A DNA stretch of 64,000 nt from a virus, in the IMG/VR virus record IMGVR_UViG_3300044712_002165, positions 11,143-75,142 of that record, one strand, 5' to 3'. Below, piece after piece: positions 24,840 through 29,017 of this stretch. The position numbers and the translations under genes were made by a program. The notes under the pieces were generated by a model. It had not been told where the DNA came from, ran no database searches, and saw only the letters and a program-made list of their open reading frames with translations. The first letter of the stretch is position 1; each line of letters opens with the position of its first letter.

Positions 24840-26303
24840 ATGGTTATTCTGCACGAAACAGGACGGCCGATGCTGGCGAGTGAAGGCGGTCACATCAACC
24901 GCTTCACCGACATCCTCGAATGGGGTTACCGCCTGGCTGAGACGCCGGTCGGCACCCCCGAAAAGAACCCCCGCGGTCTCTGGGAAGCCAGGGGCTGGAA
25001 GGAGTTCGTCCAACACATGCCCGAGCACAAGCGCCCCATCGCGGCGATCATGCTCGAAAACTGCCGTTCCCGCTGGGGCCGGCTGGACGAAGTTACCCGG
25101 ACCACAAGTCTCGGTACCTTTGATAAGTGGATCTTCCCGGTGATTGCGAACATGTCCGAGAACGACGTGATCGACCAGCTCGTCGCCATCCAGCCGATGG
25201 CCGGTCCGGTCAGTCAGATCGTTTACATGGACATCGTCACCGGACGCCGGAAGGGCCGCACGCCCGCTGGCGCGCCGATGTGGCGTGCGCTCCAGGGCGC
25301 GGTTGACCGCGACGACGACGCCGACGAGCTGATCCAGGACGAGACCGGCACCTCGAACGGTTCCGGCGTGATCGTGCTGGAATGGACTCCGATTCGCGCC
25401 GGCACGCTGTCCGGCACCGTCGGCTCCATCTCGGTGGCCGACGACGGCAACGGCAACATCATCAACGTGGCGTCCAACGCTACCGTCGGTACCGTCGTGT
25501 ACCAGGGCACGGGCGCGGGCACGATCACCATCGCGTCGCAGGCGAACGCGAGCTACACGCTCACCTACGCCTACAACTCGGAAGGCAACCTGGCGATCCA
25601 GGACTACGAGATGAAGCTCTCATCGACGCCGGTTACGGCGAAGGTGATGAAGCTGAAGACCCTCTGGTCCGAGGAAGCCGACCAGAACCTCCAGGCGATG
25701 TACAACATCAAGGCCGAGAGCGTCCTGCTCAACGCCCTGACCAACGCGCTCCAGTACCAGAAGCACCGCCAGGTGATCTTCGATCTGCGCGCCAAGGCTG
25801 ACGCCGGCTTCGTCGTCTGGGACGCCATCGCTCCGGCGAACGTCAACTACCAGACGCACAAGTTCTCGATCATCGACGCGTTCGAGACCGCCTCGAACTT
25901 CATCTTCGGTGCCACGAACATGGTCGCCGGCAACTGGGTGCTCCTGGGTCTCCAGGCTGCCACCGTGGTGGCCACGCTGCCTCAGTTCGTGCCGAAGAAC
26001 TCCCGGGTCCAGATGCAGGGCATCACCTACATCGGTGATCTTGGAAATAAGAAAATCTTCTCGGACCCGCACTATCCGAACAACGAGTTCCTCGTCGGCC
26101 ACAAGGGCGACCAGTTCCTCACGACCGGGTACGTTCTGGCGGAATATCAAAAATTGTATACAACGCCCGACGTTGTTCTCCCGGACTTCATCCACCAGCG
26201 CGGCTTCGCCACGAGCTTCGCTCGGAAGATGATCAACTCGAAGATGTTCTGCCGCGGATTGGTTCAGAACTCTCCGACGGCGTTCGGCCAGACCATCGGC
26301 TAA
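24840..26303 (+). CDS. major capsid protein (T4 gp23-like)
   Basis: AIMLEN..LVAIQPMAGPVSQIVY..VTAKVMKLKTLWSEEADQNL.A. Confidence 0.95.
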   Translation: MVILHETGRPMLASEGGHINRFTDILEWGYRLAETPVGTPEKNPRGLWEARGWKEFVQHMPEHKRPIAAIMLENCRSRWGRLDEVTRTTSLGTFDKWIFPVIANMSENDVIDQLVAIQPMAGPVSQIVYMDIVTGRRKGRTPAGAPMWRALQGAVDRDDDADELIQDETGTSNGSGVIVLEWTPIRAGTLSGTVGSISVADDGNGNIINVASNATVGTVVYQGTGAGTITIASQANASYTLTYAYNSEGNLAIQDYEMKLSSTPVTAKVMKLKTLWSEEADQNLQAMYNIKAESVLLNALTNALQYQKHRQVIFDLRAKADAGFVVWDAIAPANVNYQTHKFSIIDAFETASNFIFGATNMVAGNWVLLGLQAATVVATLPQFVPKNSRVQMQGITYIGDLGNKKIFSDPHYPNNEFLVGHKGDQFLTTGYVLAEYQKLYTTPDVVLPDFIHQRGFATSFARKMINSKMFCRGLVQNSPTAFGQTIG

Positions 26304-26321
26304 GCGCTGACTGACTTCACG

Positions 26322-26354
26322 AAAAACCCGCAGCCTCACGGCTGCGGGTTTTTT
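26322..26354. terminator. bidirectional intrinsic terminator
   Basis: AAAAA-CCCGCAGCC-TCAC-GGCTGCGGG-TTTTTT, closing both the capsid operon (+) and the array transcript (-). Confidence 0.9.
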
Positions 26355-26362
26355 GTTTACGT

Positions 26363-27088
26363 TCCGGCCCTTCCTATCCTGTTCGGTCGTCTACCTTCCA
26401 ATCCATGACTTTCCTTTCCTGCCTTTCCGTTCCTTTCCGCAACTTTCCTCTGCGCACCGCTCCACTTCGTTCCATTCCGGCCCTTCCCCTCCTGTCCATT
26501 CAGCTCCCTAGCACTTCTAACCGTTCCTCTCCTGCCCTTCCGTAGCCTTCCCTGCCGGTCCGATCCTTTCCTTTCCCATCAGCTCCTTTCCGAGCCGTTC
26601 CTGCCTTTCCATTAGCGTCCACACCATTCCTGCCGGTCCGGTCCCATCCCTTCCTATCCATTCCGCTTCTCGCCATTCCAATCCTCTCCTGCCGCTCCAC
26701 TCCTCTGACCTCCGGTCCGTTTCTATCCCCGCCGCTCCTTTCCTGCCGGTTCATTCCCCTCCATGCCACTTTGCGACGCTCCACTCCTATCGTCTCCTGC
26801 CGGTCCGTTCCCCTCCATGCCGTTCCTCACCGTTTCACTCCTTGCCTCTCCTGCCGGTCCGATCCTTGCCATTCCAGTCCGCTCCTTTTCGTGCCTTGCC
26901 ATTCCTGCCACTCCGATCCGATTCCTTCCACTGCGTTCCGATTCACTCCCTGCCGTTCCTCTCCTGCCCTTCCTCAACGGTCCCATCCACTCCACTTCTC
27001 TCCACACCATTCCTCACGGCTCCATTCCTGCCTTTCCATTAGCGTCCGATCCTATGCAATCCACAACTGTCCAATCCTGCCGTTCCTT
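26363..27088 (-). ncRNA. pentamer-periodic guide-like RNA array with 13 units of AGGA-(NN-GGA)n-NN-GGC; VIPR-like
   Basis: The + strand parses in unbroken 5-nt register as GCC NN (TCC NN)n TCCT. Unit starts are 26367, 26421, 26480, 26534, 26603, 26632, 26691, 26745, 26799, 26853, 26907, 26966 and 27030. All unit lengths are 5n+4. Confidence 0.8.
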
Positions 27089-27090
27089 GT

Positions 27091-27570
27091 TTACGTTTTG
27101 GTACACCGTTTTCTCACTCTATCCACGGTGTCCCAAATTTCATGAAGGTGCGTGAAGAACGCGTATTTTGCCTTCAGCCTGTCAAGCTCGCGGTAGAGCT
27201 GCTCAAGCAGCACTGTACTGTGCTGCGCGCTACTCATGACCTCGCCCACGGGTCTGTACCCTCCGCCTTGTTCGCGGTCCGTGGTGAGGCTGATCCAGGC
27301 AGGAGCCGGGCTGCCGTTTGACAACGTTATTTCGATCTTACCGACGAGGTCTCTCGCCTCGACGATCCAGTATTTTTGAGCAGCTTCTTGAACATCCCAG
27401 GTAAAGTGCCTGTGGCATTCACTCTGTGGATGCGTGCGGGCAAACTCAACGATGTCGGCTAGGTGAAGTTTGCCGTCTTTGGAAGCAGCGCGGATTTTTT
27501 CGATTTCCCGCGCTGCCTTTTTGAGCCGACGTGGTTCAAAAGCGTTGTCCATTGGGAAGCAGAACTTCAA
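27091..27570 (-). CDS. accessory protein of the RAMP/array cassette
   Basis: GKL...IVEFAR..P.S..H.HFTWD...AA..Y....AR.L. It overlaps the RAMP gene end and its stop abuts the array. Confidence 0.75.
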   Translation of the reverse strand: MKFCFPMDNAFEPRRLKKAAREIEKIRAASKDGKLHLADIVEFARTHPQSECHRHFTWDVQEAAQKYWIVEARDLVGKIEITLSNGSPAPAWISLTTDREQGGGYRPVGEVMSSAQHSTVLLEQLYRELDRLKAKYAFFTHLHEIWDTVDRVRKRCTKT

Positions 27571-28264
27571 AGGAGCCCCATCCGCAGCCGTTGGATTGGC
27601 GTGAGTTCATGCGCCCTTCACCGAGGCCGTTTTGAAGACCCATGCGCCACAGCAAATTCGTCACGTCGTTGTGCGTAAACTGGTCCTGGTCCCATCCGAG
27701 AGTGACGACGGCTTCCCATCCGGGTTTCCACAGAGGGCGCGACTTGATGTCGAAAACTCCCGTAGCCAACCGGCCAGGGCCAAGGTGCTGTTCGGGCTCA
27801 CCTTTGGTAATCCGAACGAGCGGGGTATTGTCGAACATGTCGTAGCCATCGGCAATGCACCAGATCGACATTTTGGCCAGCGTCATTTTGTAATCAACCA
27901 GACGGCAAACAGAGATGATGCCGCAACGGATTGCAGTGGCGTTAAAGCCGTTCCAACCTTCGTTGGACACGTAGAGGGCGTCCTTCCAGAGCTGGTCAAA
28001 GTCCTTGGGAGCGCGTGAACCTTTCTTGGTCTTGGAAGTCGTTCCTTCGCGCTGTCTGCCCATGATTGCCTCCTGGGACTTGGTGCTGAACCGCTGAATG
28101 ACCAAAGGCGTGGTGCCTCGAATCGTGAACTGTGCGCGCACCATGTTCGGCGCATTGACCTGCACCTCTTTGGTGACGACTCGACTGGTTTCGTCCGGTG
28201 CGGGCGATCCGTTCGTCGCGGCTGATGTTCCGTTGTTGCGTGTCGGTTTGAGCGTTGCTTTCAT
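27536..28264 (-). CDS. Cas7/RAMP-like RNA-binding protein (Vipr-like)
   Basis: beta1 QFTIRGTTPLVIQ, GFNATAIRCGI (cf. RAMP iPgsslKG), and a C-terminal Gly-rich loop GLGEGRMNSRQSNGCGWGSFEV. Confidence 0.78.
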   Translation of the reverse strand: MKATLKPTRNNGTSAATNGSPAPDETSRVVTKEVQVNAPNMVRAQFTIRGTTPLVIQRFSTKSQEAIMGRQREGTTSKTKKGSRAPKDFDQLWKDALYVSNEGWNGFNATAIRCGIISVCRLVDYKMTLAKMSIWCIADGYDMFDNTPLVRITKGEPEQHLGPGRLATGVFDIKSRPLWKPGWEAVVTLGWDQDQFTHNDVTNLLWRMGLQNGLGEGRMNSRQSNGCGWGSFEVLLPNGQRF

Positions 28265-28290
28265 TGTGTTGTACTCTGGGGTACGGCGCA

Positions 28291-28363
28291 TACATTTTGT
28301 AAACGTTTACATTTTGTCAAACAGTTTTCTGCAATTGACGCATGCGCTGCTGAACCGTAACCT
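28291..28363. promoter_or_regulatory. divergent promoter region
   Basis: Minus strand: TTGACA (28315-28320) followed by the palindrome TGTAAACGTTTACA. Plus strand: TTGACG-N17-TAACCT. Confidence 0.55.
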
Positions 28364-28372
28364 TCCGACAGG

Positions 28373-29017
28373 GTGGAAACCAAAGCTCAGCAGATCGCGG
28401 AGATGCTTTTGGAGCACAGGCGCTACGAAGCGTTACGTCCGGCTACGCCGCTTACCGCAGCGCAGCTCCTGGAGATGCCGCAGCACTACCCGGGCAACGT
28501 CATCTATCAGTCCAAGCTCAAATTCGTGCCGATCTCGCGCCGGAATTTCGGCAGCCACATCGTGATCGGCCAGGACGGTTTCTACACCTACGTCGTCGAT
28601 CTTTCCCAGACGACGGGTTTCGTTTTCGTCAGCGCGGACATCGAGTCGGAGGCGCTCGAATTCGTCCCTGTCATGCAACTTCAGCTGCGCAAGTCGTCGC
28701 TTGACGGACTGCGCCAAGCCTTTCGCCTGCGTATACAGGAAGAGCATGCGCGCAAGGGCATCGCGACGACGTGGTACGTGTTGTTTGCTCAGACGTTCGG
28801 CGGTATCGTTTCCGACTTTGAGCACCTGGAAGGTGGCAAGAATTTGTGGCGTGCTTTTGTAGACAAAGCTGCGTACCGCGGACTGACGATTCACGCTGTT
28901 GACACTTTGACAGGTGAATCAGTTCCAGTAGGCCCGGAAACGTCGGATGATGCGATCTGGTCAACGGATCAGAGTAAGAGGAGTACCGTTTTGGTACTTC
29001 GCAGGTCAGCGCGTTAG
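28373..29017 (+). CDS. GNAT-like acetyltransferase
   Basis: IQEEHARKGIATTWY (R/QxxGxA acetyl-CoA motif), IVSD..H.EGGKNLW. Confidence 0.6.
   Translation: METKAQQIAEMLLEHRRYEALRPATPLTAAQLLEMPQHYPGNVIYQSKLKFVPISRRNFGSHIVIGQDGFYTYVVDLSQTTGFVFVSADIESEALEFVPVMQLQLRKSSLDGLRQAFRLRIQEEHARKGIATTWYVLFAQTFGGIVSDFEHLEGGKNLWRAFVDKAAYRGLTIHAVDTLTGESVPVGPETSDDAIWSTDQSKRSTVLVLRRSAR

What the first reader, a model, noticed from the sequence alone, without database searches (positions are those of the whole stretch)
26367..27078. Variable dinucleotides decode as codon positions 1-2 (wobble skipped) into protein-like peptides
Reading + strand NNs as NNx codons gives: 26367 LY[WC]GSL[KN][IM][FL][FL]; 26421 [FL]V[FL]A[FL]SAATV[IM]; 26480 LP[WC][IM]ALTYVS; 26534 LVLLG[DE][FL][FL][HQ]A[FL][DE]V; 26632 GG[HQ]LY[IM]AS[IM][KN]S; 26691 ATSPGVYPA[FL]; 26745 G[IM]P[IM]TAATYS; 26799 GVP[IM]VSVT[FL]S; 26853 G[DE][FL][IM][SR]A[FL]V[FL][IM]; 26907 T[DE][DE]LTV[DE]TLVS; 26966 LSG[HQ]TTST[IM]SA[IM]; 27030 [FL][IM]R[DE]Y[KN]T[WC][KN]. 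Inference: the guides are antisense to coding strands and ignore every third base, so most synonymous escape mutations would not matter. By eye I found no full match to a protein in this window.
Basis: partly seen in the sequence, partly recalled or inferred. Interest (0 to 1): 0.9.

Follow-up and report, generated by a model that had tools for sequence, protein, structure and literature searches.

The report
Phage VIPR guide array, GGA type
The five-base repeat tract is the guide-RNA array of a VIPR system, a CRISPR-related phage weapon published in 2026 whose guides skip every third target base.

Summary
Observation confirmed. Bases 26363-27088 hold 13 units of length 5n+4, carrying 132 variable dinucleotides between TCC triplets (GGA on the - strand).

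The array lies directly downstream, on the - strand, of a Cas7/Csm3-fold gene (Z 11.5) and a conserved partner gene. About 66 of 80 relatives carry same-strand GG-pentamer arrays with the same 4-nt GGCA junction. This is a VIPR system (Vipr + vap + staggered vrRNA array; bioRxiv 10.64898/2026.04.26.720920). [quoted passage not shown]

Interpretation partly supported. NN composition fits codon positions 1-2.

Eight-NN seeds hit conserved peptide motifs in phase. A reversed-order control did about as well (16 versus 19 clusters), so there is no excess over shuffled guides.

One guide (26745) has a single exact 10/10 in-phase match, in nuoE of a Sphingomonadaceae bacterium. That is compatible with chance, and ten other guides tested did not match those genomes beyond the control.

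The locus uses GGA where most relatives use GGC, with covarying Vipr residues. This scan has reported VIPR arrays, including GGA types, on other DNA before.

The parts
27536..28291 (-). vipr: stand-alone RAMP (Cas7/Csm3-fold) protein, 251 aa (P0001)
   Evidence: AlphaFold model has pLDDT 80.6. Foldseek top hits are all Csm3/Cas7 of type III and VII complexes, E 5e-6, prob 1.0. VIA-align gives Z 11.5, rmsd 3.5 A over 152 residues to Csm3 9g9f_D, and Z 10.3 to 6ifn_E, the Cas7 chain used as query in the VIPR paper. There are at least 275 homologues at about 50% identity and 506 viral loci. A glycine-rich C-terminal loop has invariant G218, G222, G226, G235, G237 and G239. No Pfam or PADLOC family matched.
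27091..27570 (-). vap-like accessory gene, 159 aa (P0002); overlaps the vipr 3' end by 35 nt, and its stop codon lies in the 11-nt repeat that opens the array
   Evidence: tblastn finds homologues on the same strand immediately downstream of vipr in 47 of 80 related loci. It matches phrog_15946, function unknown. The model has pLDDT 89.8 and is mostly helical.
26363..27088 (-). staggered vrRNA array: 13 guide units of (GGA-NN)n ending in GGC-A, n = 9, 12, 11, 10, 10, 10, 10, 11, 5, 13, 10, 11, 10 in RNA order; 132 NN in all
   Evidence: Parse. The same grammar, (GGx-NN)n with a 4-nt GGCA junction, occurs on the vipr strand in 66 of 80 related loci. The - strand RNA is no more structured than shuffles (z +1.35), so there are no inter-guide hairpins or tails.
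26745..26798 (-). guide with one exact external match; vrRNA-sense decoding E-Y-V-A-A-V-[IM]-G-[IM]-P
   Evidence: The 10/10 NN exact pattern hit one metagenome contig (L230, positions 2777-2805). The site is in nuoE (PF01257, E 4e-52) of a nuoC-D-E-F operon at codon offset 0. Sphingomonadaceae nuoE homologues match 19/20 and 18/20 bases.
26799..26852 (-). sister guide sharing 5 of 10 NN with 26745; vrRNA-sense decoding [DE]-[KN]-V-T-[DE]-T-[IM]-G-T-P
Evidence: The shared motif is E-[NK]-V-A-x-x-[IM]-G-[TI]-P, and 28 of the 39 hits lie in ~860-aa portal genes (25 of them forming the largest cluster). The guide does not match nuoE (14/20).
26966..27029 (-). 12-NN guide; an 8-NN seed spells [DE]-I-V-[DE]-V-V-W-P on the vrRNA-sense strand
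   Evidence: 56 viral hits, 44 on that strand at offset 0. The best full-guide match is 10/12. Ten consecutive NN gave no exact match in the metagenome collection.
26907..26965 (-).
   Evidence: 22 viral hits in 14 clusters, 6 of them sense at offset 0. Likelihood is +2.9 bits against -1.9.
26603..26631 (-). short 5-NN unit, a chimera of two other units
   Evidence: 26598-26620 is identical to 27025-27047, and 26618-26631 is identical to 27001-27014.
26353..26363 (.). 11-nt direct repeat TTGTTTACGTT bounding the array (3' end of the transcript)
   Evidence: Identical copy at 27087-27097.
27087..27097 (.). second copy of the 11-nt direct repeat; contains the vap stop codon
26322..26354 (.). bidirectional intrinsic terminator shared by the gp23-like capsid gene (+) and the vipr-vap-array operon (-)
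   Evidence: A 9-bp G+C stem with A and T tracts on either side. The - strand terminator was called. It is the only strong hairpin in the fold.

Best explanation
This is a VIPR (Viral Interference Programmable Repeat) system of an uncultured T4-like phage found in rhizosphere metagenomes. CheckV rates the contig 33% complete, so the genome is probably jumbo-sized.

The - strand operon is vipr (RAMP protein), then vap, then a tail-less 'staggered' array of 13 vrRNAs, ending at a terminator shared with the capsid gene.

By analogy with the characterised SUSP1 and P. fulva systems, which is inference here, one Vipr protomer binds each pentamer. It sequesters the constant GG-A triplet and presents the two variable bases. 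These pair with target DNA two bases on, one base off, giving sequence-specific binding and transcriptional silencing of the target gene. Because the skipped base tends to fall on the codon wobble position, synonymous mutations do not free the target.

Shown here: the RAMP fold, the conserved two-gene-plus-array architecture across dozens of phages, the 5n+4 grammar, NN composition typical of codon positions 1-2, and the absence of self-targets on the contig.

Inferred: expression and processing of the array, the 1-nt skip in this clade, and the targets. Targets are most likely genes of rival phages or other mobile elements. One guide exactly matches a host-type nuoE gene.

The local peculiarity is GGA instead of GGY as the constant triplet. 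It is accompanied by substitutions at otherwise conserved Vipr positions.
For: Fold: Csm3/Cas7 matches, E 5e-6 and Z 11.5.

Family: at least 275 homologues and 506 viral loci.

Architecture: 66 of 80 loci carry GG-pentamer arrays on the vipr strand with GGCA junctions. vap homologues lie adjacent in 47 of 80.

Grammar: 13 units of 5n+4 with 132 NN.

Published description of the same parts, the skip rule, wobble placement and staggered arrays.

Composition: positions 1-2 are favoured in the window and over 318 clade guides (+186 bits for vrRNA-sense positions 1-2, next best +105, others -344 to -851).

In-phase hits: 34 of 47 seed-hit clusters lie at codon offset 0.

Gap test: 19 clusters at 1-nt gap against 4 at 2-nt gap.

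One exact 10/10 in-phase match.

No self-target above shuffled guides in the 75-kb contig.

Phage context: gp23-like capsid protein and prohead protease just upstream.
Against: No RNA evidence was available.

The constant triplet is GGA, which abolished silencing when introduced into SUSP1 vrRNA, and the SUSP1 pocket excludes purines. This clade must therefore read base 3 differently.

The reversed-order control guide gave as many hits and clusters as the real seed (58 hits in 16 clusters against 56 in 19) and also a phase-0 bias (9 of 16). The seed hits therefore show coding-like composition, not targeting.

A local test of 269 clade guides against 0.77 Mb of VIPR-bearing phage DNA showed no excess for skip 1.

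Four full or near-full guide scans gave only one exact hit.

Composition alone separates 'positions 1-2 sense' from 'positions 2-3 antisense' poorly per guide (161 against 144 guides).
Confidence: 0.82

Rival explanations
1. A VIPR-type ribonucleoprotein that does not follow the published rule. This clade, with tail-less staggered arrays and GGA/GGC/GGT triplets, might read targets with another spacing, read RNA rather than DNA, or use only part of each unit.
For: No skip-1 excess in the local clade-wide test. The real seed is no better than the reversed-order control. The rule was demonstrated experimentally only for type II systems with tailed vrRNAs. GGA is non-functional in SUSP1.
Against: NN composition fits a period-3, positions 1-2 reading best. 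The single exact match is in phase with a 1-nt skip. The paper reports >=80% NN matches under the same rule for type III and V guides against IMG/VR.
Confidence: 0.1
2. A protein-titrating non-coding RNA, for example a CsrA/RsmA sponge presenting about 85 GGA motifs, unrelated to guide function.
For: The - strand RNA is a dense run of GGA motifs.
Against: Relatives with the same gene pair and grammar use GGC or GGT, not GGA. The RNA has no hairpins to present GGA in loops (z +1.35). No Rfam family matched. The array is genetically tied to a RAMP gene. The punctuated 5n+4 units with hypervariable NN have no role in a sponge.
Confidence: 0.03
3. A low-complexity protein-coding or pseudo-coding region (Pro/Ser/Leu-rich on +, Gly/Glu/Arg-rich on -).
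For: The + strand has few stops (1, 3 and 3 per frame), and ORFs of 124-130 aa can be drawn in it.
Against: Every unit shifts the pentamer register by 5n+4, so no frame keeps a repeat. Stops occur in all six frames. The period is 5, not 3. The few stops follow from 76% pyrimidine composition.
Confidence: 0.01

Closest known systems
VIPR systems with staggered vrRNA arrays and alternative repeat consensus (bioRxiv 10.64898/2026.04.26.720920, text, methods and legend of fig. S18)
   Same: Phage-encoded. A lone small RAMP protein plus an accessory gene. Guides built of pentamers with constant GG and two hypervariable bases, 9-13 repeats per guide. No hairpin or tail between guides, and neighbouring guides offset by one base (units of 5n+4 with a 4-nt junction). 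NN composition typical of codon positions 1-2.
   Different: The constant triplet is GGA (79% of GG pentamers), not GGY. The paper names NNNGG, YNNNG and NNNNG as alternatives but, in the text held here, no GGA type. The figures were not available, so the VIPR type (I-VII) could not be assigned. The staggered type itself has no published RNA-seq confirmation.
Type II VIPR of Escherichia phage SUSP1 and the Pseudomonas fulva prophage (same preprint and 10.64898/2026.04.26.720927)
   Same: Vipr filament with one protomer per repeat. The 1-nt skip rule with the skip on the wobble base. Silencing of rival mobile elements. No self-targets.
   Different: SUSP1 vrRNAs are separate ~100-nt RNAs with an invariant 3' tail and pseudoknot, whereas here there is none. 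The SUSP1 base-3 pocket excludes purines and GGY>GGA abolishes function. P0001 has no detectable sequence match to any PDB chain.
Class 1 CRISPR backbone (Cas7/Csm3 filaments on crRNA)
   Same: Same protein fold (Z 10-11.5). Periodic disruption of guide-target pairing by a thumb.
   Different: Period 6 with 5 paired bases, against period 5 with 2 paired bases. There are no repeat-spacer array, no cas genes and no adaptation module here.

Membership tests
VIPR system | Vipr protein: small stand-alone RAMP with RRM core, glycine-rich loop and thumb | tested here: met
   Z 11.5 to Csm3 and Z 10.3 to 6ifn_E. Foldseek E 5e-6. The conserved glycine-rich C-terminal loop is present. Beta-hairpins at 157-201 fit a thumb.
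VIPR system | Sequence membership in the family collected by PSI-BLAST from UniProt X1U2U4 | not tested
   The seed sequence is not held by any tool used. VIPR structures are not in the PDB sequence copy (no hit at E<=10).
VIPR system | Minimal non-CRISPR locus: vipr plus a vap gene, no cas genes, no CRISPR array | tested here: met
   vipr and vap overlap. vap is conserved beside vipr in 47 of 80 loci. The neighbours are a capsid gene, a prohead protease and genes without Pfam hits. No PADLOC hit.
VIPR system | vrRNA of 9-16 tandem pentamers with conserved GGY alternating with hypervariable NN | tested here: inconclusive
   GG and the NN grammar are met, with 9-13 repeats per unit and one of 5. 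Base 3 is A in 79% of pentamers, so the strict GGY consensus is not met. The paper allows NNNGG-type consensus. Relatives of the same protein clade are GGC.
VIPR system | Staggered array: adjacent vrRNAs overlap by 1 nt, without tails | tested here: met
   All 13 units are 5n+4 with a GGC-A junction, and there is no structure between units. Only the DNA grammar was tested. Processing sites cannot be tested here.
VIPR system | Targets recognised with a 1-nt skip, with the skipped base mostly on the codon wobble position | tested here: inconclusive
   For: composition, 19 versus 4 clusters for gap 1 versus gap 2, and one exact in-phase match. Against: no excess over the reversed-order control and no skip-1 excess locally.
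VIPR system | vrRNAs expressed and bound by Vipr | not testable with these tools
   This needs small-RNA sequencing and a pull-down.
VIPR system | No self-targeting of the carrier genome | tested here: met
   Best matches in the 75-kb contig equal those of shuffled guides for all skips. The contig is only about a third of the genome.
CsrA/RsmA-titrating sRNA (CsrB/RsmZ type) | GGA motifs presented in hairpin loops; GGA conserved among relatives | tested here: not met
   Fold z +1.35, with no hairpins. No Rfam match. Relatives use GGC or GGT.
CRISPR array | Identical direct repeats of 23-50 nt separating unique spacers, with cas genes nearby | tested here: not met
   The only constant elements are 3-nt triplets and a 4-nt junction. 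No cas genes apart from the lone RAMP.

The most novel reading that the evidence does not exclude
Two things the evidence does not exclude go beyond the preprints.

(a) Guide 26745 may really be aimed at the host's respiratory complex I gene nuoE. It matches 10/10 NN, in phase, in a Sphingomonadaceae-type nuo operon of similar G+C. A lytic phage would then be using VIPR to silence a host housekeeping gene, not only rival mobile elements.

(b) The third base of the repeat may be a tunable specificity letter read by a pocket near the glycine-rich loop. GGC arrays go with V221, the two GGA arrays with N221 plus Y107, I125, V128 and C236, and the one GGT array with T221. That would allow orthogonal VIPR systems that do not cross-load each other's guides.
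Probability: 0.2. Interest if true: 0.6.

Novelty: new member of a known kind. Interest (0 to 1): 0.3.

Why it matters
For the finding as written, little. The gapped, wobble-skipping code and its escape-proofing rationale were published in 2026, and this locus is one more natural example.

It still adds a few things. It is a cleanly punctuated 13-guide staggered array in an uncultured T4-like rhizosphere phage.

It shows that most guides should be decoded on the vrRNA strand, with the NN read as sense codons, not on its complement.

It gives a natural GGA-type array whose Vipr carries matching substitutions. This is relevant to engineering orthogonal VIPR tools, because GGA is dead in SUSP1.

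It also offers a testable lead that a phage guide may point at a host gene.

Finally, it is a methodological warning. Short period-3 seeds hit conserved peptide motifs in phase whether or not the guide order is real, so only near-full-length matches judged against shuffled guides count as targets.

Tried and rejected
Databases with no result:
- Rfam, E<=1, region 25500-28500: only two sub-threshold chance hits.
- blastn of the locus against 50,697 phage records: no match.
- PDB sequence search with P0001: nothing at E<=10.
- Pfam and PADLOC for P0001 and P0002: nothing.

vap structure: Foldseek found nothing at E<=0.001, only faint winged-helix rows (forkhead, MarR, IscR) at E>1. The wide VIA search had a best Z of 4.8. 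No fold is assigned.

Target searches that found nothing:
- Guide 26534, NN 2-10, viral contigs: 0.
- All 13 NN of 26534 with <=3 mismatches: 0 in 5 genomes and 0 in 401 Sphingomonadaceae genomes.
- Guide 26966, NN 2-11, metagenome contigs: 0.
- Guide 26745, exact, 596 Gb of genome contigs: 0.
- Guides 26367, 26421, 26480, 26799, 26632, 26853, 26907 and 26966 with <=3 mismatches in the five genomes closest to the nuoE hit: 0.
- Guide 26691: 3 hits at 3 mismatches, against 3 for the backward control.

The portal gene as target of the sister guides was considered. Its 8/10 matches are forced by the degenerate pattern used and are not evidence.

For guide 26966, the 10/12 match in L128 and L164 (sense, G-S-G-Q-T-T-S-T-I-S-G-I) and the 9/12 antisense matches are within what seed extension gives by chance over 56 hits.

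Cross-targeting among 80 VIPR-bearing loci: no skip-1 excess.

Whether the two GGA-type Viprs (window and L023) arose independently: they are not sisters in the ML tree (0 of 200 bootstraps), but the AU test does not reject a single clade (p 0.33). Convergence is not claimed.

Expression: no RNA holder is listed among the public runs. The runs laid were DNA contigs only.

Promoter scan: no sigma-70-like site in 26200-28500.

Full report
**What is there**

Downstream of a gp23-type major capsid gene (24840-26303, Pfam Gp23 E 3e-29) and a prohead protease gene, and after a G+C-rich terminator hairpin (26322-54), the + strand turns into a 726-nt tract. The tract is 76% pyrimidine and is built of five-base steps, two variable bases followed by TCC.

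The tract parses without remainder into 13 units GCC-(NN-TCC)n-T. Their lengths are 54, 59, 54, 69, 29, 59, 54, 54, 54, 54, 59, 64 and 49 nt. Every unit is 5n+4, so the register slips by one base at each junction, and 132 dinucleotides are carried in all.

Of 145 constant triplets, 85 are TCC, 24 GCC and 11 TTC, and the rest are degenerate. TCC follows TCC at exactly 5 nt 37 times, against at most 11 times in 1000 shuffles.

An 11-nt direct repeat, TTGTTTACGTT, bounds the tract on both sides.

It merged two units at 26534 and omitted the 5-NN unit at 26603.

**Which strand, and what goes with it**

On the - strand two overlapping ORFs run into the tract. The first is 28291-27536 (251 aa, P0001). 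The second is 27570-27091 (159 aa, P0002), whose stop codon sits in the 11-nt repeat. On that strand the tract reads (GGA-NN)n GGC-A.

P0001 has no Pfam, PADLOC or PDB sequence match. A model built on 30 homologues (pLDDT 80.6) matches only CRISPR backbone subunits:
- Foldseek: E 5e-6, probability 1.0, to Csm3/Cas7 of type III and VII complexes.
- VIA-align: Z 11.5, rmsd 3.5 A over 152 residues, to Csm3.
- VIA-align: Z 10.3 to 6ifn_E.

The family is large. There are at least 275 proteins near 50% identity and 506 confirmed places in viral contigs.

In about 65 of the 80 loci fetched, a first scan found a GG-pentamer array lying next to the gene and almost always on its strand. A stricter parser calls arrays in 66 of the 80. 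They have the same grammar, (GGx-NN)n units separated by a 4-nt GGCA junction. P0002 homologues follow the RAMP gene on the same strand in 47 of 80 loci.

The - strand RNA of the window is, if anything, less structured than shuffled sequence (z +1.35). Its only strong hairpin is the terminator.

**What is known**

A first-stage note on the same stretch used the word VIPR, and that led me to two 2026 preprints. They describe Viral Interference Programmable Repeat systems. The parts are a small RAMP protein (Vipr), an accessory gene (vap), and vrRNAs of 9-16 pentamers in which a constant GGY alternates with hypervariable NN.

One Vipr protomer binds each repeat. The NN pair with target DNA while one target base per repeat is skipped. 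In natural targets the skipped base 'overwhelmingly' falls on the codon wobble position. Targets lie on either strand and are mostly rival phages, satellites and prophages.

The paper also reports alternative consensus repeats (NNNGG, YNNNG, NNNNG). It reports 'staggered arrays with overlapping vrRNAs', in which neighbouring vrRNAs are offset by one nucleotide. That matches the 5n+4 units seen here.

**Testing the code on this array**

Three kinds of test were possible.

*(i) Composition.* I used the codon statistics of this phage's own genes. They do not fit positions 2-3 or 3-1 (-9 to -54 bits).

Over 318 guides of the clade, each scored with its own locus's codon statistics, the best model by 81 bits is 'NN in vrRNA orientation = sense codon positions 1-2' (+186). 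Per guide the separation from 'positions 2-3 antisense' is poor, 161 against 144 guides.

*(ii) Seeds in 2.9 million viral contigs.* Only exact patterns could be searched, eight scans in all.
They spell E-[NK]-V-A-x-x-[IM]-G-[TI]-P, and 28 lie in ~860-aa portal genes.
- Eight NN of guide 26966 gave 56 hits, 44 again on the opposite strand at offset 0. They spell [DE]-I-V-[DE]-V-V-W-P in several protein families of large phages.
- Nine NN of guide 26421 gave 5 hits, 3 on the opposite strand at offset 0.

Collapsed to independent clusters (flanks under 60% identical), 34 of 47 clusters are in phase 0.

The 26966 seed with a 2-nt gap gave 31 hits but only 4 clusters, against 19 for the 1-nt gap. 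The same eight NN in reversed order with a 1-nt gap gave 58 hits in 16 clusters, 9 of them in phase 0.

Any period-3 pattern with coding-like dinucleotides therefore finds conserved peptide motifs in phase. The seeds show that the NN are coding-like. They do not show targets.

*(iii) Full-length matches.*
- No self-target exists in the 75-kb contig.
- Guide 26534 (NN 2-10) and both sister guides have no exact match in the viral contigs.
- Guide 26966 (NN 2-11) has none in the metagenome collection.
- Guide 26745 has exactly one, described next.

**The single exact match**

The match is on a 4.5-kb, 64% G+C metagenome contig (L230). All ten NN match at codon offset 0 of nuoE (PF01257, E 4e-52), inside a nuoC-D-E-F operon. 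The peptide is E-Y-V-A-A-V-I-G-M-P, read on the vrRNA-sense strand.

The closest genomes are Sphingomonadaceae (Polymorphobacter and relatives). Their nuoE matches 19/20 and 18/20 bases at the same site. No exact match exists in 596 Gb of reference genomes.

A 20-base pattern is expected to hit a collection of this size roughly once by chance, so the match alone is not significant. The sister guide does not fit nuoE (14/20). Ten other guides have no match within 3 mismatches beyond the tool's backward-pattern control in the five closest genomes. The 13-NN guide has none in 401 genomes of the family.

I keep this as a lead at about one in five. The phage occurs in rhizosphere metagenomes, where such bacteria are common, but that is weak support.

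**The GGA peculiarity**

Among 67 arrays, base 3 of the repeat is mostly C. It is T in a few (L036 91%, L080 48%). It is A only in the window (79%) and in L023 (83%). The junction stays GGCA in all.

In SUSP1, base 3 sits in a pocket formed by helix 1 and the glycine-rich loop. That pocket excludes purines, and changing GGY to GGA abolishes silencing.

The two GGA-type Viprs share residues that are rare elsewhere in the family:
- Y107: H in 71 of 78 others.
- I125.
- V128: A in 73 of 78 others.
- N221: V in 75 of 78 others. This position lies just before the glycine-rich loop.
- C236: within that loop.

L007 has 30% GGA and also has N221. The GGT array L036 has T221.

The two GGA proteins are not sisters in the ML tree, but a single origin is not rejected (AU p 0.33). 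I therefore report co-variation, not convergence.

**Verdict**

It is the guide array of a VIPR system and a new member of a kind published in 2026.

The wobble-skipping reading is the published rule. Here it is supported by homology and composition, but not by an excess over a shuffled guide.

The strand assignment, and hence most of the listed peptides, is wrong. The claim that guides are antisense to coding strands is not supported.

Earlier agents of this scan have already filed VIPR arrays, GGA types included, on other genomes. I did not test those notes, and they are not counted as support.

Noticed in passing
window 27536-28291 (P0001 residues 107, 125, 128, 221, 236); L023, L007, L036: The third base of the repeat co-varies with Vipr residues. 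The two GGA arrays (window and L023) share Y107, I125, V128, N221 and C236, where GGC-type relatives have H, M/A/L, A, V and M/L. L007 (30% GGA) has N221, and the GGT array L036 has T221. This may be a base-3 specificity pocket beside the glycine-rich loop.
   Followed up: partly
L125:412-3309(-), L152:6410-9607(+), L169:2195-5128(-), L122:735-2885(-), L130:5959-6612(-): The octapeptide [DE]-I-V-[DE]-V-V-W-P recurs in different proteins of large uncultured phages. It lies near the N-terminus of ~1000-aa proteins with no Pfam or PHROG family, where it is followed by an acidic tract. It lies near the C-terminus of an AAA_25 protein and of a 5'-nucleotidase. It may be a shared tag or small domain. 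Function unknown.
   Followed up: partly
window 28291-28327: A 17-nt direct repeat (consensus TACATTTTGTCAAACAGTT, 2.1 copies) lies in the short divergent intergenic region just upstream of vipr. It is a candidate operator or promoter element. No sigma-70-like promoter was called there.
   Followed up: no
window 26353-26363 and 27087-27097: Identical 11-nt direct repeats (TTGTTTACGTT) bracket the whole array, and the upstream copy carries the vap stop codon. Arrays of the relatives inspected lack this motif. It could be a leader/trailer signal or a trace of how the array was inserted.
   Followed up: partly
window 26598-26631: The 5-NN unit is an exact chimera of two other units (26598-26620 = 27025-47; 26618-31 = 27001-14), as another first-stage note said. 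This points to in-register recombination between units.
   Followed up: yes
window 25900-28400 in runs X2, X3, X4: Contigs from three further rhizosphere metagenome runs cover the array with no difference at all. The same phage with the same guide set is therefore present in several samples. The studies may belong to one campaign.
   Followed up: partly
L004, L006, L014, L015, L016, L040, L060, L062, L064 and others: Many relatives carry two arrays, one upstream of vipr and one downstream of vap. The window has only the downstream one.
   Followed up: no
clade-wide, arrays of L002-L081: The last NN before a GGCA junction is far from uniform: AA 87, AC 69, GC 54, AT 44, against TG 1 and GG 4. 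In the window the corresponding + strand NN is GG, CT or TT in 11 of 13 units. The junction-proximal dinucleotide may be constrained by processing rather than by targets.
   Followed up: no
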